This document shows, piece after piece, positions 7,552 through 31,380 of a stretch of DNA of 32,000 bases. A program made the translations under genes and the position numbers. Source of the stretch: an uncultured Chloroflexia bacterium (GTDB taxonomy: Bacteria; Chloroflexota; Anaerolineae; Anaerolineales; Anaerolineaceae); NCBI GenBank assembly GCA_963704755.1, contig OY969938.1:330001-362000 (forward strand), in the 5' to 3' direction. The notes beneath the pieces were generated by a model. It did no database searches. It saw nothing but the letters and a program-made list of their open reading frames with translations, and had not been told where the DNA came from. Within the stretch, counting starts at the first letter, position 1, and the number at the start of each line of letters is the position of its first letter.

Positions 7552-9029
7552 GGCTGCCTCGTGTAATGGTAGATTTCCAGGTCGTTGATTACCTTTTTTT
7601 CGGCCAGGTCGTAGTGTGCGTCCAGCCAGGCCAGGTTGGGATCGGCTTCTCCAGCCGTACGGTATTCGTTGATGGCCTGGGTAAAGAGCACAAAATAAAC
7701 GCTCGAGTGGCCTTGGGTAGCCGTTTGGATGTCTACCTGTGGGATCAGGCCAATCGCCTGCTGAGAAGCCGGGGCGTAGGTATCATTGGCGCTGCCCGGC
7801 TGGTCGGCCAGGAATTCCTGTTTCGGGTTCCGGTCGTAGAAATAAGCGGGAAAGAAGCTGAGCTTGTTCTCGTGCAGGATCAGGTCTCCCGGACCGCTGG
7901 TGCCCTCCAGGTAGGCTTCCGCCTGGCGAAATGGCGAGCGCGGAAACTGCTCGAATGTGTAGAAAGATGGCAGCGAAATGCACACCGAAAGCACAAACGC
8001 TCCCACCAGGAAAGGCCCTACCCCTTTTTTCCAACGGCGTCCGACCACCAGGCCGATCAAGGCGTAGTACCCTAACGAAGCGACCAGAAAACCGCGTGCT
8101 ACAAAAACCGGCCGGATCAGGTAGGAAACAATAAACAGCAGCACCGGCGGGACCAGGGCCACACAGGCGAAAAATCCAAGATGGTTAATTTTGCCGCGGA
8201 GTTTCCAGCCCTCCAGGACGGTCAGCACCAGGATTTGCAGGCTGAGGATGGCCACAATCGCAAAGGGAACCGTTCCTAACGGTAAATTGGCCGTGAACTG
8301 GACCAGGGCCTGAAAGACCTCCACCAGGCCTGGCCGGGGTGTCCAGAAGGCCGCCTGGATCTTCGCGATTTGCCCCGGCAGGTAGACCAGCCAGGGCAGC
8401 GCCAGCAGACCAATTCCAAGCTGGGCCAGCAGCAAGCCACCCAGGGCCTTCCAATCCCGCTTGAACAACAGGTACAAATCCGCCACAGCCAGGCCGAAGA
8501 TAGCCAGGTTGTGACTGTACATGGCCACCGCCCCAAACAAAACCAGTCCCAGCCATAAACCTGCCCGGCGGTCGATCTTCTCTTTTTCCAGGAAGATACG
8601 GAAAAAGCACCAGAAATACCCCATCTGCCCCAACACCAACAGGGTGTACATGCGCAGGTCCTGGGCATGGTAGATCTGGATCGGTGAAATGGCCGCCAGC
8701 AAAGCCGTCCAGGCTGCCGGCGCCCATCCCCAGGCACGGCGGACCAGGTCAAATGTAATCAGCAGAATCAGCACCGAGAGAATCGCGCTTAGTAGCCGTA
8801 AAAATACCAGGTTGCTGCTGACCTGCTGCCAGAAGTGCAGCACAAAATAATATAGAGGCGGCATCGTATCGGCCGCTGTGCCTTGCACGATCTGACCCAG
8901 GCTCCTTGCGGACAGAAAGACACTGAATGCATCGTCGTATTGGATTTCCCGTGTGGCAATTCCCAGCAATCGCAAGGCCAGCGCCAATAGCACAATTGCA
9001 AACAGCAGGAACGTCTGGCGCTTGTTCAT
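7548..9029 (-). CDS. ArnT/PMT_2-like (GT39/GT83-type) phospholipid-carrier-dependent glycosyltransferase
   Basis: 493 aa. REIQYDDAFSVFLSARSL...AADTMPPLYYFVLHFW is the pattern I associate with PMT_2/ArnT-type enzymes. Multi-TM with a soluble C-terminal domain. Starts 5 nt after the stop of the upstream gene. Confidence 0.72.
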   Translation of the reverse strand: MNKRQTFLLFAIVLLALALRLLGIATREIQYDDAFSVFLSARSLGQIVQGTAADTMPPLYYFVLHFWQQVSSNLVFLRLLSAILSVLILLITFDLVRRAWGWAPAAWTALLAAISPIQIYHAQDLRMYTLLVLGQMGYFWCFFRIFLEKEKIDRRAGLWLGLVLFGAVAMYSHNLAIFGLAVADLYLLFKRDWKALGGLLLAQLGIGLLALPWLVYLPGQIAKIQAAFWTPRPGLVEVFQALVQFTANLPLGTVPFAIVAILSLQILVLTVLEGWKLRGKINHLGFFACVALVPPVLLFIVSYLIRPVFVARGFLVASLGYYALIGLVVGRRWKKGVGPFLVGAFVLSVCISLPSFYTFEQFPRSPFRQAEAYLEGTSGPGDLILHENKLSFFPAYFYDRNPKQEFLADQPGSANDTYAPASQQAIGLIPQVDIQTATQGHSSVYFVLFTQAINEYRTAGEADPNLAWLDAHYDLAEKKVINDLEIYHYTRQP

Positions 9030-9034
9030 TCGGC

Positions 9035-10285
9035 TTAGCGGTCTTTTTCGGAGAAGGAATCAAAATACATGCGCGGTGGATGGATTGTCCACCAGCGGAC
9101 CCAATACATGACTACAAACATGAACAACGGGAAGGGGAAGAACAGGATTGGGCTCTGAATGGGCTGATACGTATATGCCACCGTCCTCAAAAAGACGTAC
9201 CAGATTCCAACCCCTACCACCAACATGCACAACACCACCATCCAATGGCCAAACTTGCGCCAGCGCTCGACAATTACCGAGAAGACCAAAATTAGCGCGG
9301 GGTACGCGACGATAAAGTTACCCGGGTCGGTCTGCAGGCCGATCCAGAAACTGCCTACCAGGGTCAAACTGGCCGCCCAAATAAACCCACGCGGACCATC
9401 ATGGCGGGTCACAAACCATTCCACCAGCAGCACCACGCCGGTCAGGATTGAAAGGGCAATACCGATCCGTTTGCCAACCCCGGGCAGGTACCCATTCAAA
9501 GCCGCCGAGACGGTCCCTGGCGGGTTGTAGCCCGGGTAACGTAATACTTCGCGCAGGTTTTGCATAATCCAATCCGGGATGAGCAGCGCCGCGATGCCGG
9601 AAAGGATCGCTACCGTCCCGACAAAATACCAGAAAGCCTTCATACGCCGGTTGGAAATGCCCCAGAAAAAGATAAAGACCACAAACAGGGCCACTACCTG
9701 CGGTTTGATCGAAGCGAAGCCCAACAATATGCCGGCGACTTCATCATGCCCATCGCGGATCGCCACCATCGCAGCGGTGATCGCCAGGGCGACCAGGATG
9801 ACCGCATTGCCCAGAATAAGCGGCCGCAAGGCGTGATACCAGAACAGCGAGAAAATTAATATCGCACCTAGCAAGATGGGCTTCGGTTTCCAGCGCACCA
9901 GGTTGAAGGAAAGGAAGGTCATTCCTACCAACGCAGCCTCTAAAACTGCCATCCAGATCGCCCTGGCCAGATCGAAGTTATGCATAAAGGCAAACGGCAG
10001 GAACAGGATGATCGAATAGAGTGGGTATGCCACGCGTAGTTCGTGCTCACCGGCCTGGGCCGGGTGGCCATAAACCATATTTTGGATGCGCAGCGCAACT
10101 TCGTCAGAATAAGGGCTCAATCCGTCTTCGATAAAGGACTGTGCCCCCTCCCAGTGGACCAAAAAATCGGTGCCCCCAGGATTCTGGCGGGTGTAATGGT
10201 AATTACCCAGCACCAGGCCCACGAATAGACCTATTGCCAGCACTACGGCTACGATGAATAAACCAATCGGGCTGCGTCGCCTCAT
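9035..10285 (-). CDS. GT87/DUF2029-like (PimE-type) membrane glycosyltransferase
   Basis: 416 aa, hydrophobic throughout. NPGGTDFLVHWEGAQSFIEDGLSPY after TM1 resembles the GT87 first-loop Asp region. Size fits PimE-like enzymes. Confidence 0.6.
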   Translation of the reverse strand: MRRRSPIGLFIVAVVLAIGLFVGLVLGNYHYTRQNPGGTDFLVHWEGAQSFIEDGLSPYSDEVALRIQNMVYGHPAQAGEHELRVAYPLYSIILFLPFAFMHNFDLARAIWMAVLEAALVGMTFLSFNLVRWKPKPILLGAILIFSLFWYHALRPLILGNAVILVALAITAAMVAIRDGHDEVAGILLGFASIKPQVVALFVVFIFFWGISNRRMKAFWYFVGTVAILSGIAALLIPDWIMQNLREVLRYPGYNPPGTVSAALNGYLPGVGKRIGIALSILTGVVLLVEWFVTRHDGPRGFIWAASLTLVGSFWIGLQTDPGNFIVAYPALILVFSVIVERWRKFGHWMVVLCMLVVGVGIWYVFLRTVAYTYQPIQSPILFFPFPLFMFVVMYWVRWWTIHPPRMYFDSFSEKDR

Positions 10286-21688: not shown

Positions 21689-21843
21689 TATTCAACTCCT
21701 GCTGTATTCATCAAGGACTGCCGGGGAATCCTTCCTGGCAGCCCTCATTAAACTATCGCAATTTAAGCGTACTCAATTCTCATTAAAATACCGCAAAAGA
21801 AATATTAATTTTTTGTAACTTTTCAGGTTTCTGTTTATAAGTA

Positions 21844-21898
21844 CCCAAAATTGAGTTGTTTGCGAGGGCAAAACCCTCGCTAACAACTCAATTTTGGG
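21844..21898. repeat. Long near-perfect inverted repeat / hairpin (24 bp stem, 5-nt loop)
   Basis: CCCAAAATTGAGTTGTT-t-GCGAGGG-CAAAA-CCCTCGC-t-AACAACTCAATTTTGGG. It lies 87 nt downstream of the response-regulator stop on the minus strand. No U-tract on either side. Confidence 0.6.
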
Positions 21899-21984
21899 GT
21901 TCGTTCCATGCAGGCCAAGCAGCTACTATTGTTTTGTATTTTCTGCCGGAATGCGGCGAGGGTTTGTTTCAGATTGACCTTTAA

Positions 21985-22722
21985 CTAACTCTCCGCTGCG
22001 GCGGTTGCCTCGCGGTTGAAATCTACAAATCGATATCCCACCCCGCGTTCGGTCAGGATGTATTTTGGATTAGCCGGGTCCTTTTCGATCTTTTGGCGCA
22101 GATAATTAACGTACAGGCGCACATAATGCGGCTCGTCGCGATATTCGTACCCCCACACCTTCGAGAGCAACTGGTCGTAAGTCATCACCCAGCCGGCGTT
22201 CTGCACCAGGTGATAGAGCAAGCGATACTCGGTTGGCCGTAATTTGACCAGCTCTCCGTCCACCCAAACTTCCCTGCGCCCAAAATCGATTTTCAACCGA
22301 TCGTCGATATTGAACACATCTTTGGATACAAACCCGGTCGATTCGGTCCGGCGCAGGACGGCTTTTACCCGGCTGACCAATTCCCGTGGGCTAAACGGTT
22401 TGGTGACGTAATCATCGGCGCCCAATTCCAGCCCCTTGACCCGATCGTCTTCTTCACCCTTGGCCGTCAGCATAATCACCGGTACCGAACTGATCTCGCG
22501 GATCAATTTCAAAACCTCGAACCCGTCCAGGTCCGGCAGCATCACATCCAGAACGACCACATCCGGCATGGCGTCGCGTAACTGATGAATGGCGTCCAGC
22601 CCGCGATATGCTTCGACCACCTGAAAACCATCTTGTTCCAGGTTAAGCCGGATAAATCGAGCCATTCTTTCTTCATCATCGACGACCAGAATGACCCGAT
22701 TTCTGAAAGAATCATCTTGCAT
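21985..22722 (-). CDS. OmpR/PhoB-family response regulator (receiver plus winged-helix), no adjacent histidine kinase
   Basis: Receiver residues are intact: VVDDEE, VVVLDVMLPDLDG (acceptor Asp), IMLTAKG, YVTKPF. The C-terminal winged helix has LRPTEYRLLYHL...YVRLYVNYLRQKIE...TERGVGYRF. ATG lies 4 nt after the upstream stop, with AAGGGAG inside the upstream gene. Confidence 0.92.
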   Translation of the reverse strand: MQDDSFRNRVILVVDDEERMARFIRLNLEQDGFQVVEAYRGLDAIHQLRDAMPDVVVLDVMLPDLDGFEVLKLIREISSVPVIMLTAKGEEDDRVKGLELGADDYVTKPFSPRELVSRVKAVLRRTESTGFVSKDVFNIDDRLKIDFGRREVWVDGELVKLRPTEYRLLYHLVQNAGWVMTYDQLLSKVWGYEYRDEPHYVRLYVNYLRQKIEKDPANPKYILTERGVGYRFVDFNREATAAAES

Positions 22723-22726
22723 AGCT

Positions 22727-22966
22727 TCACTCCCTTACGAAGGTGATGATATCTTCTTCTTCGCCAACGGGGATTATCTCAATGTAAGAAACGCGGGTAA
22801 ACGGCCAGATCACCGTGGTCACATTTGGTTCCAGATAAGGCAGGTCCTTGCCATCCTTTTTTCGAGGATTTTTCACTACCAATAAAGTGTCGTTTGAGGT
22901 AGGGAGCGAATCGACTTCACCAACAACAGGATCCTCATTAATAATGTGGATGATTACACTTGGCAT
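22727..22966 (-). CDS. Hypothetical 79-aa cytoplasmic protein, translationally coupled to the response regulator
   Basis: ORF MPSVIIHIINEDPVVGEVDSLPTSNDTLLVVKNPRKKDGKDLPYLEPNVTTVIWPFTRVSYIEIIPVGEEEDIITFVRE. Non-repetitive, beta-strand-like composition. Embedded in the operon, 26 nt after the FHA gene and 4 nt before the RR gene. I recognise no family. Confidence 0.55.
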   Translation of the reverse strand: MPSVIIHIINEDPVVGEVDSLPTSNDTLLVVKNPRKKDGKDLPYLEPNVTTVIWPFTRVSYIEIIPVGEEEDIITFVRE

Positions 22967-22992
22967 AATATCGTTTCCCGGCCTGGCTGCCT

Positions 22993-23524
22993 TTACTTAT
23001 GGATAATCAACTGGATCTTGAGTTTCCCCAAGGCAATAATATCACCATGTTTAACAGGATAATCGACATGCGGGACAATTTTTTGGCCGTTGACTCGCGT
23101 CCCATTGGAAGAACCCAGGTCCATGATGGAAATCCGCTGTGGACCTACTTTTAATCGATGCGTGCAGCCGTGAAACGCCCTGGGAATATGCCTCGAATTC
23201 CGAAAGGTCCACATCCGGCAAGATCGGCTGTCCTTCGGCGATCCGCCCGAGCGAATATTCCGACCGGCCGCTCAGATTGTACAGCTTTCCCGAATCGACC
23301 ATGCGTAAAGAGACCATCGATTCGTCTTCTTTGGTCAATACAGGTTCCGATTGAGCTTCATCGAGGTGGGCATTTCTCAGTACGTCGGTATTGAGAATAT
23401 CCGAATGAATCCGATCGAAATTTTGAGTAGTCAGAGCATCGGCTGAAACCAGCTGAGCTCCACATTCACTACAAAATAATGCGCCAGGCAATTCTTGGTG
23501 GTGGCAATTAGGGCAGAGGATCAT
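22993..23524 (-). pseudogene. Zinc-ribbon::FHA-domain protein interrupted by a +1 frameshift in a T4 run (track ORFs 23051..23524 and 22993..23214)
   Basis: The N-terminal part has the ribbon CPNCHHQELPGALFCSECG and the first half of an FHA domain, YSLGRIAEGQPILPDVDLSEF..QGVSRLHASIK. The other frame continues VGPQRISIMDLGSSNGTRVNGQKI...GDIIALGKLKIQL, the second half of the FHA domain. Removing one T from TTTT 23149-23152 joins them into a 176-aa protein. ATG 23522-23524 overlaps the upstream stop (ATGA). Confidence 0.75.
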
Positions 23525-24996
23525 GAATCGCTTCCCTCCGGTTCGGGTAACAAAAGTAATGCGCGAGTCCCATATTTAATCTTTTTATCGCCTTCTTTAC
23601 TAAACTGGTGCGTACGTTGAATATGTTCGGCTTCCATCAAGACCGTCCGCGCCAGTTCTCGATCGCCTTGCGATAACAAGTGAGTAGCAAGGTACTGTAA
23701 ATGGCGGGCAGCCTGGTGGTAATTCCCTCCCTTAACCTCGGTTTGGGCTCGTTCCTGCAAGCGATAAAGCGTAAGCCGTGACATAGCCTGTAATATATTA
23801 GTGGGTGGTTTTTCACCCAGATTATGGTCTTTAATGGGCAGAGATAGGTTAATATCGTATCGCGAATATGGAATTGGGTTGGAGGGAACTTCCATTAAAA
23901 TTTTACCGCGTATCAGCTCAAATTCAGAGACATTTTTAGGAACTGGTGGAACTTTGAACTCGAGAATCAGGCTGGTTTTGTTTCCGAAACCAATCGTCCC
24001 GACCGGAACCGGCGATTTACCCATTAATGGGGATAGCTCCGGCTGGATCCGGAATATGTAACGCAGCTCCACGTCATCTCCCACTTCGAAATGGAACTCA
24101 ACCTTGTGGGCGTAGCTGATATTGAATGAGTTCATCTTCTCGACGATATATCGAGAAAGGTCAGATCCGTTTTTTACAAAAATAGCATTCCCGCCACCGG
24201 CAGTGGAGAGCTTGTCCAGGAAATTATCGTTCCATTCGTGGCCAATACCAAAACTGGAAATCGAAAAGCCTTCTGCCCAGGCTTTGGCTGCCAGTTCCAG
24301 GCAAGCTTCTTCATCCCCGTAGGTATGCCCGTCGGTGATCAAAATTAAATGTTTGGATTCGTTTTCCAGGGTAGCCTGGCGCATGACCTGGTAACCCATT
24401 TCTAGCCCCTGGAATATTTCGGTAGCGCCGTTTGGCTGGATCTTGAAGAGCATGTTTTTGAGCAAATGGGGCTCGGTGACCGCCGCGGGTGAAACCACCA
24501 CTTCGGCCCGGTCGCTAAAAGACACAATTCCCAGGGTATCTTTCTTGCGCATTTTGCCCAATAAATCGACGATATTCGAGCGTACCATATCCATTCGCTC
24601 GCCGGCCATCGAGGTCGATCGGTCGATAATCAGGCAAATGTGGATGGGCGGCAGGTCCGATTTTACGATCGGCCGGCTGCATTCCATTTCCAGCAGCGCG
24701 TAGAATAGCTGGGGCTCATCCATTTTCGGGATGCCCGTTTTGCTAAAATAGGCCTTCAGGTTGATCTCCGCCGGCTTGAGGGTGCCGGGTGGCAGCGAAT
24801 AATCATAAGATTTCCGCTTTTCAGCCACAGACAGGACCTCGTAGGCCTCTTTTGCCTGGGTAAAGATTTTTTCAGCATCTTTATCCGGGTTTACATCCGG
24901 GTGAAAGCGTTTAGCCGCCTCGAAATAAGCCGCCCGAATTTCTGCGGGGGTTGCATCGACCGGCAGTTTTAGAAGATTATAATAATTCATCCCCAA
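23521..24996 (-). CDS. J-domain (DnaJ-like) :: von Willebrand factor A domain fusion protein
   Basis: J domain NYYNLLKLPVDATPAEIRAAYFEAAKRFHPDVNPDKD...AYEVLSVAEKRKSYD, with HPD at 24895-24903. vWA MIDAS DRSTS at 24610-24624, plus LILITDGHTYGDEE. The C-terminal about 200 aa look beta-rich and then helical. No TM segment. Confidence 0.85.
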   Translation of the reverse strand: MGMNYYNLLKLPVDATPAEIRAAYFEAAKRFHPDVNPDKDAEKIFTQAKEAYEVLSVAEKRKSYDYSLPPGTLKPAEINLKAYFSKTGIPKMDEPQLFYALLEMECSRPIVKSDLPPIHICLIIDRSTSMAGERMDMVRSNIVDLLGKMRKKDTLGIVSFSDRAEVVVSPAAVTEPHLLKNMLFKIQPNGATEIFQGLEMGYQVMRQATLENESKHLILITDGHTYGDEEACLELAAKAWAEGFSISSFGIGHEWNDNFLDKLSTAGGGNAIFVKNGSDLSRYIVEKMNSFNISYAHKVEFHFEVGDDVELRYIFRIQPELSPLMGKSPVPVGTIGFGNKTSLILEFKVPPVPKNVSEFELIRGKILMEVPSNPIPYSRYDINLSLPIKDHNLGEKPPTNILQAMSRLTLYRLQERAQTEVKGGNYHQAARHLQYLATHLLSQGDRELARTVLMEAEHIQRTHQFSKEGDKKIKYGTRALLLLPEPEGSDS

Positions 24997-25005
24997 AATA
25001 GCGGC

Positions 25006-25902
25006 TTAGATGTATTGCACGATAACTACGCTGATGTTATCCGGTCCGCCGGCCGCATTGGCTGAATCGACCAGGTTTTTACATGCTACCGATGGGTTTC
25101 GCGCGCTGGTGACGATTTGGAACACTTCGTTCTCAGAAACACTCCCCCACAAGCCATCGCTGCATAATAACATGTAACCCGGATGTGGCATAGGGAAGGA
25201 TTGAATATCCGGTTTAAAAGGTTCCGTCTGGCCCAACGCCCGGTACAACACATTCCGATTGGGGTGGACCGCTGCTTCGGCCTCGGTAATCTGGCCCAAC
25301 TCGACCAAGCGCCGGACCAGAGAATGATCGTGTGTAATCGCCTGCATACGGCCATCCGTGAAAATGAAATACGCCCGGCTGTCACCCACGTGGGCAATCG
25401 TGACTTGCTCACCGATCACCAGGGCTGCCGTTAAAGTCGTGCCACCACCCGGTGCTTTACGGCTGACGACCTGCTGGGCTTTTGCAACCCCGGCTTCCAT
25501 AATCTCTTGCAGGCTTTCAGACGGCGATTCGGCATCCAGGCTGATGTGAGGTAAATAGACCTGTGAAAGCACGTGGTTGGCCATCGTGCGGGCCGCTACG
25601 CTGCTGGCAATTTCACCATATTCATAGCCACCCATCCCATCCGCGATAATAAACAGGCCAAACGGAATTTCGATCGTCCCATCCGCCAGCAAAGCGCTCA
25701 TAGTAAATATCGCGTCTTCGTTATGGTCCCTTTGCAGGCCCACGGACTGGCCGCAGCCCACCAGAAAATGCGCCGGGTGCATACTGACCGGTTTGACGGA
25801 TACTGCCTGCAACTGGTCCTCAGTCAACGGCGCGGTTTGGACGTCGGTACTCTTTGGTTCCGTTGTTTCCTTACGGAATAATTTTTTGAAAAAGTTAGCC
25901 AA
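25006..25902 (-). CDS. PP2C-family Ser/Thr protein phosphatase
   Basis: RDHNEDA, FIIADGMGGYEYGEIAS, LLCSDGLWG and GGPDNISVVIV motifs. No C-terminal TM segment. The stop is 9 nt before the next gene's ATG. Confidence 0.9.
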   Translation of the reverse strand: MANFFKKLFRKETTEPKSTDVQTAPLTEDQLQAVSVKPVSMHPAHFLVGCGQSVGLQRDHNEDAIFTMSALLADGTIEIPFGLFIIADGMGGYEYGEIASSVAARTMANHVLSQVYLPHISLDAESPSESLQEIMEAGVAKAQQVVSRKAPGGGTTLTAALVIGEQVTIAHVGDSRAYFIFTDGRMQAITHDHSLVRRLVELGQITEAEAAVHPNRNVLYRALGQTEPFKPDIQSFPMPHPGYMLLCSDGLWGSVSENEVFQIVTSARNPSVACKNLVDSANAAGGPDNISVVIVQYI

Positions 25903-25938
25903 GGTACCTCCGCTTTGGGGGAAGAATGGTGGGATAGG

Positions 25939-27744
25939 TCATGCGATCAGGGCGTAAAAAATGTGATCGCTTGACCCAAAATAAACGACGTCATTAAAAA
26001 TCAATGGCGTGGAAGTAATCGGGCCATCCGTTAAAAATTTCCAGCGCAGCCGGCCGGTCTTGTATTCCAGGCTGTAAAATGTCCCGTCGGCGGCCCCAAT
26101 ATAAACCGCGTCTTTGTGCACCACCGGCGAACCGCTAACCTGGTGATCGGTCTGGAATTTCCATATTTCTTTGGCCGAATTGGCATCCAGGCAGTACACA
26201 TAACCATCGGCCGAACCCACGAAGATGTAATTATCCACCCGCGACGGCGAAGAAACCGAGCCCTTCATCATACGGTGTCGCCAGACGATCCAGCCGCTGC
26301 GAGCATCCAATGCATAAAAATTGCCATCCAGCGAGGTGAAATAGACCACGCCCTGCAAGACCAGCGGTGATGAGGTCACCGCCCGTTTGGCGTGGAAATG
26401 CCACTTCGATTGCCCGCGGTAATCCATGCAGAAGAAATCGCCGGCTTCATTGCCGAAATACAAAAACTCGTTGGTGACATAAGGTGTGGACCTTACCGCC
26501 GCGCCGGCATCGATTCGGAACGCCCGCCGGGTAGAAAGGATGTTGACCGCATACACAAACCCGTCGTCTGCGCCAAAGAAGACATGCCCTTCGGAAACCC
26601 GTGGAGAGCTGCGAATTGGCCCGTCCACCTGGTGACTCCAGGCCAGTTTCCCGGTGCGCGGCGTAATCGAATACAGATGCGAATCTTCCGAGCCAATGTA
26701 AATCGAATCGGGGGTTATCGCCGGCCGGGTGACGATGCCGCCTTCGGTTGGGAATTTCCAGCGGAACTCCCCGCTGGTGGCATCCAGGGCATACAGGTTA
26801 TTATCGTAGGCCCCGACGTAAATTGTGCCGTTGTCATAAGCCGCCGAACCGCGAATTTCGTCTTCACAGCGGAACACCCACAAGGGTTTGACCACCTGTT
26901 CCGAGTTTACCGTTGTGGGCAAATTGATCCGGGACAAAATGCCCGTCTTTTTGGCCGCGTTCAGCAGTGCATCTTTCATTTCACTGGCAGATTGGAAGCG
27001 CTCGTCCGGGTTGTACTGCAAGGCCGTGTTGATGATCGTTTCCAGTTCAATGCTTACAGCCGGGTTGATCTGGCGCACCGGGCGTTCGGCAAATGAAAAA
27101 GGTGGCTCGATACGTGGGTCCCGCCGGGTCAATAAATGGTGCATGGTCGCACCCAGGGCATAGATATCGGCCAGTGGTGAAGCCTCACCGCGATATTGCT
27201 CGGGTGGTGAATAGCCCTCGGTGCCGATCATGGTCCCTTTTTGGCCAACCCGGAACATTTTTGCGATGCCAAAATCGACCAGGACGACATGGCCCTGTGA
27301 ATTGATCATGATATTGGAAGGCTTCATATCCCGAAAAATGATCGGCTCGGGTTTATGGTCGTGCAGGTACTCCAAAACGTCACAAATTTCCACCGCCCAG
27401 GAGACCACCCGCTCTTCCGAGACCATCCCTTCCGAATCAGCCAAAACCGTTTCGAGATCTTTTCCGTTAACCAGCTCGAGAACCAGGTACGAGCGCTCTT
27501 CATGCGAAAAGAAATCGAAGATTTTCGGGATGGAAGGGTGGTTTAGCGTAACCAGGATGTTGCCTTCCCGCTCAAAGTTTACGATGATTGTCTGGCGAAC
27601 CAGGGGATCTCGGGCCTGGTTGATCATTTCTTTTACAGCAACCAGTTTGACTACGTTCGGGAAATGAAGATCACGAGCCCGGTATACGGAACCCATCCCC
27701 CCAACCCCAATTACGTCCTGGACCAGGTAGCGGTCAACCAGCAC
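25939..27744 (-). CDS. Hanks-type Ser/Thr protein kinase fused to a C-terminal 8-repeat PQQ-like beta-propeller, no TM segment
   Basis: G-loop IGVGGMGSVY, LVAVKEM, catalytic loop FRDMKPSNIM, VDFGIAK, GTEGYSPPE. Eight repeats of the type D(N/G)xhYALDAxoGxxhWKF follow, running to the C-terminus. Coordinates use the first canonical start (GTG 27742-27744). The true N-terminus is probably 24-30 codons further upstream (see finding). Confidence 0.88.
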   Translation of the reverse strand: MLVDRYLVQDVIGVGGMGSVYRARDLHFPNVVKLVAVKEMINQARDPLVRQTIIVNFEREGNILVTLNHPSIPKIFDFFSHEERSYLVLELVNGKDLETVLADSEGMVSEERVVSWAVEICDVLEYLHDHKPEPIIFRDMKPSNIMINSQGHVVLVDFGIAKMFRVGQKGTMIGTEGYSPPEQYRGEASPLADIYALGATMHHLLTRRDPRIEPPFSFAERPVRQINPAVSIELETIINTALQYNPDERFQSASEMKDALLNAAKKTGILSRINLPTTVNSEQVVKPLWVFRCEDEIRGSAAYDNGTIYVGAYDNNLYALDATSGEFRWKFPTEGGIVTRPAITPDSIYIGSEDSHLYSITPRTGKLAWSHQVDGPIRSSPRVSEGHVFFGADDGFVYAVNILSTRRAFRIDAGAAVRSTPYVTNEFLYFGNEAGDFFCMDYRGQSKWHFHAKRAVTSSPLVLQGVVYFTSLDGNFYALDARSGWIVWRHRMMKGSVSSPSRVDNYIFVGSADGYVYCLDANSAKEIWKFQTDHQVSGSPVVHKDAVYIGAADGTFYSLEYKTGRLRWKFLTDGPITSTPLIFNDVVYFGSSDHIFYALIA

Positions 27745-27935
27745 ATAACCAGGAGCCAGTTGCTTTACCGAGCTTTGATTATCACCAAAGCTTTGAGTGA
27801 TACGTTGAGTATCCAGCGCTGCCTCCTTTAACCATTATTTTCCCCTCTATATTCTAGATAAAAATAAGCGTCTTTCCATGAAAATTGAGTGAAAACGACC
27901 TTACTAGAACGAATGAGGGACAATACCTTCCCTAA

Positions 27936-27963
27936 ATTATAACTTGTACCACACTTTTTGCAA
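27936..27963 (-). promoter_or_regulatory. Putative sigma70-type promoter of the kinase/PP2C/vWA/FHA/RR operon
   Basis: Minus strand TTGCAA (27958-27963) -N16- TATAAT (27936-27941) in an AT-rich 320-bp intergenic region, about 100 nt upstream of the SD at 27822-27828. By eye only. Confidence 0.4.
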
Positions 27964-30183: not shown

Positions 30184-31380
30184 GTGATTGGAATGGCAGA
30201 CAGAAACCCGGTTACATCGCTCGCTCCCACTCCGAGCATTCCTGACGAGCCATGTTATAATCTTTCCAACACAGCCGCTATGGAAGAGCCGAAAGAAATC
30301 CCTCAAATTCTTGGAAACCGGTACAAGCTTCTCCAAACCATTGGTACGGGGGGCATGGCCATGGTATACCGGGCCCAGGATTTGATGCTCGAACGGCCGG
30401 TCGCGATCAAAATATTGCGCCAGGATTTTTCCACCAACGAGAGCTTCCGCGAACGCTTTCGCCTGGAAGCCCGCGCAGCAGCCAACCTGTCGCATCCCAA
30501 TATCGTCACGGTCCACGACTTCGGTTATGACGAAGAACATCTGTACCTGGTCATGGAATATGTACCGGGCACCGATCTTAAAACCATAATCCGTGAGAGA
30601 GGCAGCCTGCCCATCTCGGAAGCGGTTAATATCATCATTCAAGCCTCGGCCGGAATTGGCTATGCGCACCGCGCTGGCTTGATCCATTGCGACGTAAAAC
30701 CGCACAACATGCTGGTGTCGCCCGACCAGCGCGTCAAGGTGACCGACTTCGGTATTGCCCGCGCCATGGCCAGCATCGAACCGGACGAGAAACACGACGT
30801 AGTCTGGGGCTCACCGCTTTACTTTTCGCCCGAGCAGGCCGCCGGCCTGGCGCCTTCGCCGGCTTCGGATGTTTACTCACTGGGTGTGGTGCTGTACGAG
30901 CTCACCACCGGCCGTTTGCCTTTCAACCACAATGACCCGTCTGAACTGGCACGCCTGCACCGTGAGGTCAACCCTGTCCCGCCAAGCAAACTGAACCCGG
31001 ATATTCCGCCCGCGTTGGAACAGATTATCCTCAAAGTCCTATCCAAAGAGCCGGCCGCTCGCTATCGCACGGCCGATCAGTTAGGCCGGGTGCTATCCAA
31101 CTTTTTGAACAGCGAAGCCACGCAAGGGTCACCCGCGTATAGCTACCCCGTCCCGCCGGCCGGCGTTCCCGCTAACCCTGCCGGATCTGGCACATCCATC
31201 CCCATCCAACCCGGCCCAGCCGTATCCACCCAGCCCAGCGCGGAAGACAGCGACGAGGATACTTCCCTCGACATCGATTGGAGCCTCATCGGCCTGGCGC
31301 TCGTGGCAATCCTGGCCGTAGGCGGGCTAATCCCTTTCTGGCTGTGGATCTGGTTCACTTTTAACCCACCGATTGCATAA
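30184..31380 (+). CDS. Hanks-type Ser/Thr protein kinase, C-terminally tail-anchored, non-RD catalytic loop
   Basis: IGTGGMAMVY, VAIKIL, LIHCDVKPHNML (HCD at 30685-30693), VTDFGIAR, SPEQ. A Pro-rich linker is followed by a single TM (WSLIGLALVAILAVGGLIPFWLWIWFTF) with only 6 residues after it. The start is ambiguous: GTG 30184, ATG 30193 or Met33. Confidence 0.85.
   Translation: MIGMADRNPVTSLAPTPSIPDEPCYNLSNTAAMEEPKEIPQILGNRYKLLQTIGTGGMAMVYRAQDLMLERPVAIKILRQDFSTNESFRERFRLEARAAANLSHPNIVTVHDFGYDEEHLYLVMEYVPGTDLKTIIRERGSLPISEAVNIIIQASAGIGYAHRAGLIHCDVKPHNMLVSPDQRVKVTDFGIARAMASIEPDEKHDVVWGSPLYFSPEQAAGLAPSPASDVYSLGVVLYELTTGRLPFNHNDPSELARLHREVNPVPPSKLNPDIPPALEQIILKVLSKEPAARYRTADQLGRVLSNFLNSEATQGSPAYSYPVPPAGVPANPAGSGTSIPIQPGPAVSTQPSAEDSDEDTSLDIDWSLIGLALVAILAVGGLIPFWLWIWFTFNPPIA

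What the first reader, a model, noticed from the sequence alone, without database searches (positions are those of the whole stretch)
21985..27835. Six-gene cytoplasmic operon: PQQ-propeller kinase, PP2C, J-domain::vWA, Zn-ribbon::FHA, 79-aa unknown, orphan OmpR regulator
**Seen in the sequence**
- Six same-strand ORFs have junctions of 36, 9, -4 (ATGA), 26 and 4 nt.
- They are preceded by a 320-bp AT-rich region with a good promoter match and followed by a 24-bp hairpin.
- None of the six products has a hydrophobic segment.

**Established knowledge**
- Comparative-genomics work on tellurite-resistance loci describes a recurring vWA protein + PP2C phosphatase + Ser/Thr kinase triad, the 'TerY-P triad'. 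It is proposed to act as a phosphorylation switch.
- FHA domains read phospho-Thr.
- J domains recruit Hsp70/DnaK.

**Inference**
- This locus looks like an elaborated triad with three changes.
  - The vWA component has acquired a J domain.
  - The kinase has acquired a cytoplasmic beta-propeller, a likely ligand or protein sensor.
  - The module is hard-wired to a transcription factor whose usual partner histidine kinase is missing.
- I know of no characterised system with this full composition.
- A plausible logic is: an intracellular cue is sensed by the propeller, Thr phosphorylation follows, FHA/vWA assembly is remodelled by DnaK, and RR-dependent transcription is the output.
Basis: partly seen in the sequence, partly recalled or inferred. 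Interest (0 to 1): 0.8.

Follow-up and report, generated by a model that had tools for sequence, protein, structure and literature searches.

The report
Conserved Anaerolineae Ser/Thr phospho-switch operon
This is a real six-gene signalling operon kept in the same order in every related Anaerolineae genome examined; its core looks like a bacterial version of the archaeal ArnA/ArnB phospho-switch with a chaperone-recruiting domain, a small barrel protein and a transcription factor added, but in this genome the phospho-threonine reader gene carries a one-base frameshift.

Summary
The six minus-strand genes, their tight junctions, the upstream promoter, the downstream hairpin and the lack of membrane segments are all confirmed, and every predicted domain is confirmed by Pfam.

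- The Zn-ribbon::FHA gene is split by one extra A (23149-23152).
- The kinase starts at a CTG (27816), not at the out-of-frame ATG at 27835. CTG occupies this position in 60 of 73 related genomes.

New findings:
- The cluster is strictly conserved. All 69 related loci that are long enough and not frame-broken carry the six genes in the same order. At least 598 species-level genomes encode the J-vWA protein.
- The J-vWA protein models confidently as a J domain plus a vWA domain inserted in a beta-sandwich plus a four-helix bundle. Its best structural matches include Sulfolobus ArnB.
- Together with the Zn-ribbon::FHA partner, which has ArnA architecture, this points to an ArnA/ArnB-like switch rather than a TerY-P triad.
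- The 79-aa protein is a Chloroflexota-specific small barrel with an Sm-like predicted fold.

Mechanism beyond domain logic remains inferred. Verdict: a new variant of a known kind, moderately interesting.

The parts
27936..27963 (-). Sigma-70-type promoter, TTGCAA (27963-27958) - 16 nt - TATAAT (27941-27936)
   Evidence: One search gives a 10/12 match. A perfect TATAAT occurs in 72 of 73 homologous upstream regions against 11 expected, often as GGTTGCAA...TATAATTT.
27822..27829 (-). Shine-Dalgarno AAAGGAGG, 5 nt upstream of the CTG start of the kinase gene
   Evidence: Sequence read. In one search, 70 of 73 related genomes have a GGAG/GAGG/AGGA-type match in the window 5-17 nt upstream of the aligned start position.
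25939..27816 (-). Hanks-type Ser/Thr kinase (residues ~25-275) with a C-terminal cytoplasmic PQQ-type beta-propeller; 625 aa from the CTG start (601 aa from the GTG at 27744)
   Evidence: - Pfam: Pkinase 8e-40, Beta-prop_ACSF4 6e-73, PQQ_2 1e-45.
- Best NCBIfam match is AfsK, 199 bits, far below its cutoff of 1300.
- VAVK, FRD, DFG, activation-loop threonines and SPPE are at least 92-100% conserved in 76 genomes.
- CTG start supported.
25006..25902 (-). PP2C Ser/Thr phosphatase (298 aa) with a ~50-residue N-terminal extension carrying a conserved T-A-P-L
   Evidence: - Pfam PP2C 4e-17.
- NCBIfam Stp1/IreP 213.6 bits against a cutoff of 230.
- Metal-binding motifs NED, DGMGG, GDSR, DGLW and DN are 98-100% conserved.
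- T23, P25 and L26 are 94-98% conserved.
23521..24990 (-). J-domain::ArnB-like vWA protein (489 aa from the ATG at 24990; a TTG at 24996 is also possible)
   Evidence: - Pfam DnaJ 1e-18, VWA 4e-19.
- HPD, the MIDAS residues D-x-S-x-S/T/D and C-terminal K-Y-G-T475-R-x-L478 are 94-100% conserved in 82 genomes.
- AF2 model: pLDDT 88, pTM 0.84. It shows a J domain, two beta-strands, the vWA domain, a six-strand sandwich and four helices.
- Foldseek top hits: 4fx5 (6e-27), ArnB 8s05_A/B (1e-25, TM 0.72), 5a8j, then Sec23/24.
22993..23524 (-). Zn-ribbon::FHA gene (ArnA-like architecture), interrupted in this window by a 1-nt insertion in the A-run 23152-23149; overlaps the J-vWA stop by 4 nt (ATGA)
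   Evidence: - The ORF split is seen. The alignment to relative L089 shows one extra A.
- The repaired 176-aa protein hits Pfam FHA 1e-14 and Zn_Ribbon_1 1e-5.
- The CxxC pairs and the pThr-binding G-R, S-R-x-H and N-G residues are 97-100% conserved.
- Downstream of the shift there are 33 synonymous codon differences against 1 non-synonymous, compared with L089.
- It is the only frame break among the 14 syntenic L089 proteins that match the window.
22727..22966 (-). 79-aa small beta-barrel protein (Sm-like predicted fold) with an acidic tail and a C-terminal I-I-x-F-V-R-E
   Evidence: - No Pfam, NCBIfam or PADLOC hit.
- 183 close homologues; the 120 listed are 79-80 aa.
- 225 representative clusters.
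- AF2 pLDDT 84, five strands.
- All top Foldseek hits are Sm/LSm, with E about 6e-3 and TM 0.5-0.6.
21985..22722 (-). OmpR-family response regulator (245 aa) with an intact phospho-acceptor pocket
   Evidence: - Pfam Response_reg 2e-32, Trans_reg_C 6e-25.
- D14/D15, D59, T86 and K108 are 96-100% conserved.
- It is the most conserved protein of the six, at 79% mean pairwise identity.
- Nearest NCBIfam models are MtrA, RpaB and YycF, all below cutoff.
21844..21898 (-). 25-bp near-perfect inverted repeat 87 nt downstream of the regulator's stop codon; no U-tract
   Evidence: single copy in the window. It lies where relatives carry an hsp20 gene with its own palindromic promoter region.

Best explanation
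**What it is**
The six genes form one operon encoding a cytoplasmic Ser/Thr phospho-switch of the ArnA/ArnB type.

**Shown**
- All six genes are co-oriented, tightly spaced or overlapping, and strictly syntenic across the class.
- All catalytic and ligand-binding residues are conserved.
- The vWA protein is predicted to have the ArnB tripartite fold with an N-terminal J domain.
- Its translationally coupled neighbour has ArnA's Zn-ribbon-plus-FHA architecture.

**Inferred mechanism**
1. The PQQ-propeller kinase, made at low level from a conserved CTG start, phosphorylates threonines on its partners.
   - Candidate sites are the invariant T475-R-x-L in the last helix of the J-vWA helix bundle, T23-A-P-L in the PP2C tail, and T3-x-x-I at the kinase N-terminus.
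2. As in ArnAB, the Zn-ribbon would hold the FHA protein loosely on the beta-sandwich and helix bundle.
3. The FHA domain would then clamp onto the phospho-threonine to give a tight complex.
4. The PP2C erases the mark.
5. The J domain (HPD invariant) recruits DnaK, either to remodel or dissolve that complex or to hand over a client bound at the MIDAS site.
6. The co-translated OmpR-type regulator is the transcriptional output. It could be a kinase substrate or be sequestered and released by the complex.
7. The 79-aa barrel acts as an adaptor or regulator of the kinase propeller.

**In this genome**
If the frameshift is real, the FHA reader is truncated after its Zn-ribbon and half of the FHA domain.
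For: **Operon**
- Junctions in the window are 36, 9/15, -4, 26 and 4 nt.
- Medians across about 75 genomes are 25, 9, -4, 15 and 4 nt.
- 69 of 81 related loci have all six genes in order. The other 12 are cut by contig ends or frame-broken.
- A conserved TATAAT lies upstream, and in relatives the next promoter follows directly after the regulator gene.

**Activity**
- Kinase, PP2C, HPD, MIDAS, FHA pThr-pocket and receiver residues are 92-100% conserved.

**ArnAB likeness**
- AF2 model of the J-vWA protein: pLDDT 88.
- Foldseek matches ArnB 8s05_A/B at E 1e-25 with TM 0.72 over nearly the whole chain, plus 4fx5 and 5a8j.
- ArnB is the best non-J-domain PDB hit for the sequence profile, E 2e-17.
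- ArnA appears among the FHA hits.
- Zn-ribbon plus FHA architecture is confirmed.
- The ArnAB mechanism is taken from PMC6509490 and PMC12852372.

**Link between the 79-aa protein and the kinase**
- The 79-aa gene is retained with kinase, PP2C and FHA genes in variant locus L092, which lacks the J-vWA protein and the regulator.
- It is fused in frame to the end of a PQQ-propeller kinase in L090 and L093.

**Transcription factor as output**
- The regulator is the most conserved component.
- In L092 a MerR-family HTH protein occupies the equivalent end of the cluster.
Against: - The ArnB similarity rests on a predicted structure.
- Sequence similarity is confined to the generic vWA and FHA domains. 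ArnA scores only E about 1e-3.
- No family other than DnaJ and VWA matched the C-terminal 200 residues.
- ArnB's helix bundle carries many phospho-threonines. This one has a single invariant Thr, and it is modelled inside a helix.
- Variant L092 keeps the kinase, PP2C, FHA and 79-aa genes without any vWA protein. The FHA's main ligand may therefore be something else.
- The regulator keeps every residue needed for ordinary Asp phosphorylation. It may simply answer to a distant histidine kinase.
- 79-aa homologues also occur next to topA in Limnocylindria and between hisF and hisIE, with no kinase nearby.
- No regulator-binding motif was found upstream of the operon.
- There are no experimental data for any step.
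Confidence: 0.55

Rival explanations
1. Phospho-gated chaperone-targeting device. The J-vWA protein is primarily a specialised DnaK co-chaperone. Its client binding at the MIDAS site is switched by the kinase, PP2C and FHA proteins in response to proteotoxic or redox stress sensed by the propeller. Transcription is secondary.
For: - The HPD motif is invariant.
- hsp20 is the next downstream gene in 20 of 71 related loci and thioredoxin in 23.
- In relatives the hsp20 promoter region carries a conserved palindrome directly after the regulator gene.
- A DUF255 thioredoxin-domain gene is also nearby.
Against: - hsp20 is absent from this window and from most loci.
- hsp20 has its own promoter, so the adjacency may be plain synteny.
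- The regulator is the best-conserved member, which argues that transcription is central.
- Variant L092 lacks the J-vWA protein but keeps the rest.
Confidence: 0.15
2. Two functionally separate units share one transcript. The first is a kinase/PP2C/vWA/FHA signalling module. The second is an unrelated pair made of a nucleic-acid-binding barrel protein and a response regulator, with the regulator controlled by a histidine kinase encoded elsewhere.
For: - The receiver pocket is fully canonical.
- 79-aa homologues occur with topA/xerC or his genes and without kinases.
- The predicted Sm-like fold suggests RNA or DNA binding.
- In L092 the regulator is replaced.
Against: - There is no exception to the six-gene order in the 69 complete loci.
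- The 4-nt junction between the 79-aa gene and the regulator gene, and the 15-26-nt junction between the FHA and 79-aa genes, are conserved.
- The 79-aa domain is fused to a PQQ-propeller kinase in another lineage.
- The 79-aa gene stays with the kinase, PP2C and FHA genes when the regulator is lost.
Confidence: 0.15
3. An elaborated TerY-P triad: a vWA/PP2C/kinase stress or anti-phage switch of the kind found in tellurite-resistance and defence loci.
For: - The three domain types co-occur in one operon.
- The kinase domain hits generic defence-kinase models PD-T4-6 and mad6.
Against: - The vWA, FHA and 79-aa proteins hit no PADLOC model.
- There is no TerF/TerY-type vWA Pfam hit.
- The kinase lacks the C-terminal Zn-ribbon or OB fold that defines the triad (PMC11090510).
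- The locus is a fixed, single-copy part of core synteny in every related genome examined, not a variable island.
- The kinase hits are to the catalytic domain only.
Confidence: 0.05

Closest known systems
ArnA/ArnB with kinase ArnC (and ArnD) and phosphatase PP2A, Sulfolobus acidocaldarius (PMC6509490, PMC12852372; PDB 8s05, 5a8i, 5a8j)
   Same: - An adjacent gene pair encodes a Zn-ribbon-plus-FHA protein and a vWA protein.
- In the vWA protein the vWA domain is inserted in a beta-sandwich and followed by a four-helix bundle (predicted here).
- A Hanks-type kinase writes the mark and a Ser/Thr phosphatase erases it.
- The system is cytoplasmic, the MIDAS site is intact, and the output is transcriptional.
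   Different: - The host is bacterial.
- The kinase and a PP2C (not PP2A) are encoded in the same operon.
- The vWA protein carries an N-terminal J domain.
- The helix bundle has one invariant Thr rather than a Thr cluster.
- A 79-aa barrel protein and an OmpR regulator are co-encoded.
- Sequence similarity is weak, and no interaction has been tested.
Deinococcus radiodurans DRA0331-DRA0334 operon (vWA, Ser/Thr kinase, FHA, PP2C; bioRxiv 10.64898/2026.01.23.701218)
   Same: A bacterial operon that combines the same four domain classes. The FHA protein and the PP2C are shown there to act antagonistically on kinase phosphorylation.
   Different: - There the PP2C carries its own KI-FHA domain.
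- The abstract mentions no J domain, propeller kinase, barrel protein or response regulator in that operon.
- Gene order differs.
- Homology of the individual proteins was not tested here.
AfsK / KbpA / AfsR of Streptomyces (PMC1262709)
   Same: - A Hanks kinase with C-terminal PQQ-type repeats and no extracellular domain.
- It acts on a transcription factor that has an OmpR-type DNA-binding domain.
- A small kinase-binding regulator is encoded nearby.
- AfsK is the best NCBIfam model for this kinase.
   Different: - The score is far below the AfsK cutoff (199 against 1300 bits).
- AfsR is a SARP/NB-ARC protein, not a response regulator.
- KbpA's relationship to the 79-aa protein was not examined here.
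- The passages read on AfsK mention no vWA, FHA or PP2C partners.
TerY-P triad (Anantharaman et al. 2012, as summarised in PMC11090510)
   Same: A vWA protein, a PP2C and a Ser/Thr kinase in one operon, proposed to act as a phosphorylation switch.
   Different: - The vWA protein is not TerY-like.
- The kinase has a propeller instead of a Zn-ribbon or OB fold.
- There is no ter or defence-island context.
- FHA, J-domain, barrel and regulator components are additional.
Ser/Thr-kinase cross-talk to OmpR-family regulators (PrkC-WalR, Stk1-CovR, PknH-DosR; recalled from memory)
   Same: A Hanks kinase and PP2C pair acting on a response regulator close to the MtrA/WalR/RpaB group.
   Different: - Those regulators have cognate histidine kinases next to them, and the Ser/Thr kinases are membrane receptors.
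- Here the regulator is encoded inside the kinase operon with no adjacent histidine kinase.
- Phosphorylation of this regulator has not been tested.

Membership tests
ArnA/ArnB-type FHA-vWA switch | Reader protein with an N-terminal C4 Zn-ribbon/Zn-finger followed by an FHA domain with an intact pThr pocket | tested here: met
   - Pfam Zn_Ribbon_1 (1e-5) plus FHA (1e-14) on the repaired protein.
- The CxxC pairs and the GR, SRxH and NG residues are 97-100% conserved.
- In this window the gene is frameshifted.
ArnA/ArnB-type FHA-vWA switch | vWA domain inserted in an eight-strand beta-sandwich and followed by a C-terminal four-helix bundle | tested here: met
   - AF2 secondary-structure order: two strands, vWA, six strands, four helices, at pLDDT 88.
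- Foldseek to ArnB 8s05_A/B gives E 1e-25 and TM 0.72-0.73 over 423 alignment columns.
- This is a predicted structure only.
ArnA/ArnB-type FHA-vWA switch | Sequence-level membership of the C-terminal regulatory bundle (ArnB_C, IPR040929) | tested here: inconclusive
   - Pfam reports only DnaJ and VWA-type families at E <= 0.01.
- I could not verify that an ArnB_C model is in the library.
- The profile-to-PDB alignment with ArnB covers only the vWA region, positions 118-312.
ArnA/ArnB-type FHA-vWA switch | FHA and vWA genes adjacent in one operon | tested here: met
   A 4-nt ATGA overlap here. The median junction is -4 nt in 78 genomes.
ArnA/ArnB-type FHA-vWA switch | Kinase-dependent phosphorylation of bundle threonines creates a tight FHA-vWA complex that the phosphatase reverses | not testable with these tools
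   Only a candidate site is available: invariant T475-R-x-L478.
TerY-P triad | TerY-like vWA protein | tested here: not met
   No PADLOC family. No vWA-TerF-like Pfam hit at E <= 0.01. The predicted fold is ArnB-like.
TerY-P triad | Ser/Thr kinase fused at its C-terminus to a Zn-ribbon (or an OB fold in the defence variant) | tested here: not met
   The C-terminal 330 residues form a PQQ-type beta-propeller. Definition from PMC11090510.
TerY-P triad | PP2C phosphatase in the same operon | tested here: met
   Pfam PP2C 4e-17.
AfsK (NCBIfam NF053615) | Score at or above the curated equivalog cutoff | tested here: not met
   198.8 bits against a cutoff of 1300. It is the best-scoring model, and its best stretch lies in the propeller.
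OmpR-family response regulator | Receiver domain with the acidic pocket, phospho-acceptor Asp, Thr and Lys, plus a winged-helix Trans_reg_C domain | tested here: met
   Pfam 2e-32 and 6e-25. The residues are 96-100% conserved.
MtrA / RpaB / WalR(YycF) equivalogs | Score at or above the curated cutoff | tested here: not met
   227 against 300, 226.5 against 330, and 220 against 340 bits.
Stp1/IreP PP2C (NF033484) | Score at or above the curated cutoff | tested here: not met
   213.6 bits against a cutoff of 230. This is a near miss.
Sm/LSm fold | Five-strand bent beta-barrel superimposable on Sm proteins; N-terminal helix; Sm1/Sm2 motifs; ring oligomer | tested here: inconclusive
   - The model has five strands and no N-terminal helix.
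- All top Foldseek hits are Sm/LSm, but with E 6e-3 to 6e-2 and TM 0.5-0.6.
- Motifs and oligomerisation were not tested.
J-domain co-chaperone | J domain with the HPD tripeptide | tested here: met
   Pfam DnaJ 1e-18. HPD is 100% conserved in 82 genomes. DnaK stimulation was not tested.

The most novel reading that the evidence does not exclude
Across a whole bacterial class, a master-type OmpR regulator (nearest to MtrA/WalR/RpaB) may have been handed from a histidine kinase to a Hanks-kinase circuit. In that circuit an ArnA/ArnB (Sec23/24-core-like) phospho-switch, coupled to Hsp70 through a fused J domain, would sequester or release the regulator. A new Sm-like barrel protein would gate the kinase's cytoplasmic propeller, and kinase dosage would be set by a conserved CUG start codon. 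This would be the first ArnAB-type switch in which the route from switch to transcription is visible in the operon itself.
Probability: 0.15. Interest if true: 0.8.

Novelty: new variant of a known kind. Interest (0 to 1): 0.55.

Why it matters
- **A missing link in the archaeal system.** For ArnA/ArnB it is still unknown how the FHA-vWA complex reaches transcription (PMC12852372). This bacterial counterpart encodes writer, eraser, reader, scaffold and a DNA-binding protein in one conserved operon. That makes the question directly testable with six recombinant proteins.
- **Hsp70 and phospho-signalling.** The operon offers a natural case of Hsp70 recruitment to a phospho-signalling complex.
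- **A new protein family.** It gives a first functional context to a Chloroflexota-specific 79-aa protein family.
- **Relevance to Anaerolineae.** These are abundant, poorly tractable filamentous bacteria of digesters and sediments. A module this conserved, with a regulator 79% identical across the class, probably controls a central process.
- **Limits.** All parts are known domains, and vWA/FHA/PP2C/kinase operons are already described. The surprise is in the combination, not in the kind.

Tried and rejected
1. **Programmed +1 frameshift in the FHA gene: rejected.**
   - The closest relative reads ATT-AAG-GTT in frame.
   - FHA is a single ORF in nearly all other genomes. The exception seen is the frame-broken long-read MAG L073.
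2. **General poor assembly as the cause of the frameshift: not supported.** No other frame break occurs among the 14 syntenic proteins that match the window. A local homopolymer error cannot be excluded.
It is out of frame and gives a 17-codon ORF.
4. **Search for a regulator-binding or other conserved motif upstream of the operon.** K-mer enrichment in 73 upstream regions found only the promoter hexamers and the CTG-GAT-AC start.
5. **Rfam scan of the whole window:** no family.
6. **Loose regex for the downstream palindrome across loci:** uninformative, with too many chance hits.
7. **TerY-P or defence-system membership:** not supported.
8. **Context of divergent 79-aa homologues as a test of linkage to the kinase: mixed.**
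   - Same six genes in L091.
   - A reduced cluster in L092.
   - Kinase fusions in L090 and L093.
   - Unrelated contexts in Limnocylindria and L094.
9. **The window's own protein could not be located** in the contig index, so the source organism's name was not obtained.
10. **One literature query failed on syntax**.

Full report
**1. Anatomy in the window**

All six genes lie on the minus strand.

| Gene | Coordinates | Size |
|---|---|---|
| Kinase | 25939-27744 from the first canonical start | 601 aa |
| PP2C | 25006-25902 | 298 aa |
| J-vWA | 23521-24996 | 491 aa (489 aa from the ATG at 24990, the start used in the source annotation) |
| Zn-ribbon::FHA | 22993-23524 | 176 aa when repaired |
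| 79-aa protein | 22727-22966 | 79 aa |
| OmpR-type regulator | 21985-22722 | 245 aa |

- The junctions are 36, 9 (or 15), -4, 26 and 4 nt.
- Pfam confirms every claimed domain: Pkinase (8e-40) with a PQQ-type propeller (6e-73); PP2C (4e-17); DnaJ (1e-18) plus VWA (4e-19); Zn_Ribbon_1 (1e-5) plus FHA (1e-14); Response_reg (2e-32) plus Trans_reg_C (6e-25).
- The 79-aa protein hits nothing in Pfam, NCBIfam or PADLOC.
- No product has a membrane-like segment. The highest 19-residue Kyte-Doolittle mean is 1.56.
- The upstream intergenic region is exactly 320 bp at 40% GC, against 53.6% for the window. It carries TTGCAA-16-TATAAT at 27963-27936.
- A 25-bp inverted repeat sits at 21844-21898. It is single-copy in the window and lacks a U-tract.
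- Rfam finds nothing in the window.

**2. Two corrections to the observation**

*The FHA gene is frameshifted.*
- It is not a single ORF. The frame from the ATG at 23524 ends at 23051 (157 aa). The conserved C-terminal half of the FHA domain continues in the +1 frame to 22993.
- Alignment with the closest relative (L089) shows one extra A in the run at 23152-23149: ATT AAA A GTA here against ATT AAG GTT there. There is no other indel.
- Deleting one A gives a 176-aa protein collinear with L089.
- Downstream of the shift, 33 codons differ synonymously and only 1 non-synonymously. Upstream the counts are 53 and 21. The +1-frame tail has therefore been under purifying selection for essentially all of the divergence.
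- It is the only frame break among the 14 syntenic L089 proteins that match the window.
- Relatives have an intact gene.
- The lesion is either a local sequence error or a very recent inactivation. A programmed frameshift is rejected.

*The kinase does not start at the ATG at 27835.*
- That codon is out of frame and opens a 17-codon ORF. The kinase frame has a stop at 27837-27835.
- Stop-to-stop translations from 16 relatives show amino-acid conservation beginning at L-(D/E)-T-x-x-I-T, upstream of the first canonical start.
- In 73 genomes the codon at that aligned position is CTG in 60, TTG in 5, ATG in 3 and GTG in 1. In 70 of the 73 an SD-like match (GGAG, GAGG or AGGA) lies in the 5-17 nt upstream. 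Forty-three of them have no in-frame canonical start upstream.
- The start is therefore the CTG at 27816, 5 nt after AAAGGAGG, giving 625 aa.
- CUG is a weak initiator in studied bacteria (established knowledge). Its conservation next to a strong Shine-Dalgarno suggests deliberately low or tunable kinase dosage. This is inference.

**3. Conservation**

- The 79-aa protein has 183 close homologues. The 120 listed are 79-80 aa long and 61-100% identical to it; the 100% match is the source genome's own copy. Those that carry a source name are Anaerolineae or other Chloroflexota.
- A pattern and tblastn scan of one genome per species found at least 598 genomes encoding a relative of the J-vWA protein. 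The best 80 are all Anaerolineae or Chloroflexota.
- I called ORFs in these loci and searched them with the six window proteins. Of 81 loci, 69 carry all six genes in the same order and strand. The remaining 12 are cut by contig ends or have frame-broken genes in long-read MAGs. I found no counter-example.
- Junctions are conserved, with medians of 25, 9, -4, 15 and 4 nt.
- A perfect TATAAT occurs in 72 of 73 upstream regions, against about 11 expected.
- Mean pairwise identities:

| Protein | Mean pairwise identity |
|---|---|
| Regulator | 0.79 |
| Kinase | 0.64 |
| 79-aa protein | 0.56 |
| PP2C | 0.54 |
| FHA | 0.50 |
| J-vWA | 0.44 |

- All catalytic and ligand-binding residues are 92-100% conserved: kinase VAVK/FRD/DFG and activation-loop threonines, PP2C metal ligands, HPD, MIDAS DxSxS/T/D, the FHA GR/SRxH/NG pocket, the Zn-ribbon cysteines, and receiver DD/D/T/K.
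- The locus sits in stable housekeeping synteny (Zn_ribbon_8, thioredoxin, murA) and not in a variable island.
- No histidine kinase lies in the flanks examined here or in L001-L003 and L089.

**4. What the vWA/FHA pair is**

- An AlphaFold2 model of the J-vWA protein is confident (pLDDT 88, pTM 0.84). It reads J domain (1-65), two strands (76-104), vWA (116-290), six strands (292-387) and four helices (397-477).
- Foldseek against the PDB returns these hits:
  - the Catenulispora vWA protein 4fx5 (E 6e-27);
  - ArnB in the ArnAB complex 8s05_A/B (E 1e-25, TM 0.72-0.73 over nearly the whole chain);
  - the ArnB paralogue 5a8j;
  - then Sec23/Sec24.
- By sequence profile, ArnB is also the best non-J-domain PDB hit (E 2e-17, vWA region). 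ArnA appears among the FHA hits at E about 1e-3.
- In Sulfolobus, ArnA is a Zn-finger plus FHA protein. ArnB is a vWA domain inserted in a beta-sandwich and followed by a regulatory four-helix bundle.
- Its reported mechanism runs as follows (PMC6509490, PMC12852372):
  - The Zn-finger binds the sandwich and bundle constitutively.
  - The Hanks kinase ArnC phosphorylates bundle threonines.
  - The FHA domain then binds tightly.
  - PP2A reverses this.
  - The complex modulates archaellum gene expression by an unknown downstream route.
- The pair here has the same two architectures, and the genes overlap by 4 nt, which is also the median junction across 78 genomes. It is encoded with a Hanks kinase and a Ser/Thr phosphatase.
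- I therefore regard ArnA/ArnB as the closest known system. Membership is by architecture and predicted fold, not by strong sequence similarity.

**5. TerY-P is not the right frame**

- TerY-P is a TerY-like vWA protein, a PP2C and a kinase fused to a C-terminal Zn-ribbon or OB fold (PMC11090510).
- This kinase has a propeller.
- The vWA protein matches no PADLOC family and no TerF/TerY-type Pfam family.
- The genomic context is core, not defence.
- The kinase's PADLOC hits are to generic catalytic-domain models.

**6. The other parts**

*Kinase, PP2C and regulator.*
- AfsK is the best NCBIfam model for the kinase (199 bits, cutoff 1300). AfsK is the classic cytoplasmic PQQ-repeat kinase that acts on a transcription factor with an OmpR-type DNA-binding domain (PMC1262709).
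- The PP2C narrowly misses the Stp1/IreP cutoff (213.6 against 230 bits).
- The regulator is nearest to MtrA, RpaB and YycF but falls below their cutoffs.

*The 79-aa protein.*
- It models as a five-strand barrel (pLDDT 84). Its Foldseek hits are all Sm/LSm proteins, but weak (E 6e-3, TM 0.5-0.6).
- An exhaustive profile search finds 225 representative clusters.
- Distant members of 130-180 aa (profile-profile probability 98.5%) lie between Big_5 genes and topA-xerC in three loci. One of the three was tied to Candidatus Limnocylindrales through its TopA cluster. No kinase is nearby.
- Another member lies between hisF and hisIE.
- Against that, a divergent Anaerolineae-like locus (L092) keeps the kinase, PP2C, Zn-ribbon::FHA and 79-aa genes. 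It lacks the J-vWA protein and replaces the regulator with a 122-aa protein and a MerR-family HTH protein.
- In L090 and L093 the 79-aa domain is fused in frame to the end of a PQQ-propeller kinase. Those kinase genes are broken by several frameshifts.
- So a kinase, PP2C, FHA and 79-aa core with a DNA-binding protein at the 3' end is plausible. The 79-aa family is not exclusive to it.

*Candidate FHA docking sites (inference).* Three conserved T-x-x-(L/I) motifs lie at or near protein termini:

| Protein | Motif | Conservation |
|---|---|---|
| J-vWA | T475-R-x-L478 | 100% |
| PP2C | T23-A-P-L26 | 94-98% |
| Kinase | T3-x-x-I6 | 64-83% |

**7. Mechanism and confidence**

- *Shown:* the operon organisation, the conservation, intact active sites, and the ArnA-like and predicted ArnB-like architectures.
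- *Inferred:*
  - the kinase and PP2C write and erase threonine marks;
  - the Zn-ribbon::FHA protein reads them on the vWA scaffold;
  - the J domain brings in DnaK to remodel the complex or take a MIDAS-bound client;
  - the regulator is the transcriptional output;
  - the 79-aa barrel modulates the propeller.
- I give this 0.55.
- The main caveats are the reliance on a predicted structure, the single invariant bundle threonine, the vWA-less variant L092, and the canonical Asp pocket of the regulator.
- No paper describing this operon was found. The nearest bacterial precedent is the Deinococcus DRA0331-0334 vWA/kinase/FHA/PP2C operon.

**8. Verdict**

This is a real, strongly conserved and uncharacterised operon. 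It is a new variant of a known kind: an ArnAB-like FHA-vWA phospho-switch with its kinase and phosphatase, here joined to a J domain, a small barrel protein and an OmpR regulator. It is of moderate interest (0.55). It is not categorically new, but it is a good experimental handle on how such switches reach transcription.

Noticed in passing
window 27814-27816 (CTG) with SD 27822-27829; homologous position in L001-L083: The kinase gene uses a CTG initiation codon. CTG is at this position in 60 of 73 related genomes, and TTG, ATG or GTG occupies the same aligned position in 9 others. It follows an SD-like GGAG/GAGG/AGGA match. A rare, weak start codon conserved across a class suggests tuned low kinase dosage, or control sensitive to initiation-factor fidelity.
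   Followed up: yes
window 21689-21984, compared with L089 8988-9930: Relatives carry an hsp20 gene directly after the regulator gene (20 of 71 loci, including the closest relative L089). This window has no hsp20 match at all. The 296-bp gap instead holds the 25-bp perfect palindrome at 21844-21898. A DUF362 gene upstream of the kinase gene in L089 is also absent here.
   Followed up: partly
L053 12984-13048, L080, L041, L044, L033, L016 and others (alignment A5): A conserved 14-17-bp palindrome lies 20-50 nt after the regulator's stop codon in relatives. Its consensus is TATACAGGG-TTTGCGT-N7-ACGCAAA-CCCTGTAT. It spans a TTGCGT -35-like hexamer and a TATnnT -10-like hexamer that are exactly 19 nt apart, upstream of hsp20 or Zn_ribbon_8. 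Stems of 12 bp or more occur in 16 of 73 loci, against 13 of 730 shuffles. The layout recalls HspR/HAIR or MerR-type operators (from memory). It marks the start of the next transcription unit.
   Followed up: partly
window 30184-31380 (+): A second, unrelated Ser/Thr kinase gene (398 aa, Pfam Pkinase 6e-53) lies about 2.4 kb upstream of the operon on the opposite strand. It is 31% identical to the L089 orthologue of the operon kinase over the catalytic domain.
   Followed up: partly
L084-L087 (about 9001-9540): Homologues of the 79-aa protein, 145-179 aa long, have a disordered Ala/Pro-rich linker and a conserved C-terminal D-L-L-R-R-I-R-E-A. In all three loci examined they sit between Big_5 genes (with dprA further upstream in two of them) and topA-xerC. 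The Limnocylindria assignment rests on one TopA cluster (L087). This hints at a nucleic-acid-related role for the family.
   Followed up: partly
L090 2800-4849; L093 55-989: A lineage in which the 79-aa domain is fused in frame to the C-terminus of a PQQ-propeller kinase, next to tatA. In both independent contigs the kinase/propeller part is broken by several frameshifts. The cause (pseudogene, assembly error or something else) is unexplained.
   Followed up: partly
L092 5386-10390: A variant cluster with kinase, PP2C, Zn-ribbon::FHA and 79-aa genes, then a 122-aa hydrophobic protein and a 244-aa MerR-HTH plus coiled-coil protein. It has no J-vWA protein and no OmpR regulator. This suggests that the vWA scaffold and the type of transcription factor are exchangeable.
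   Followed up: partly
L081 11953-13209: One genome has an extra kinase-like gene inserted between the FHA and 79-aa genes. It is the only interruption of the six-gene order seen.
   Followed up: no
L038 and L081, immediately upstream of the kinase ATG: In two genomes where the kinase starts with ATG, a TATAAT box lies only 9-11 nt upstream and there is no Shine-Dalgarno. This suggests a leaderless kinase mRNA there.
   Followed up: no
It overlaps the kinase's Shine-Dalgarno and CTG start in another frame. It was not checked for conservation.
   Followed up: no
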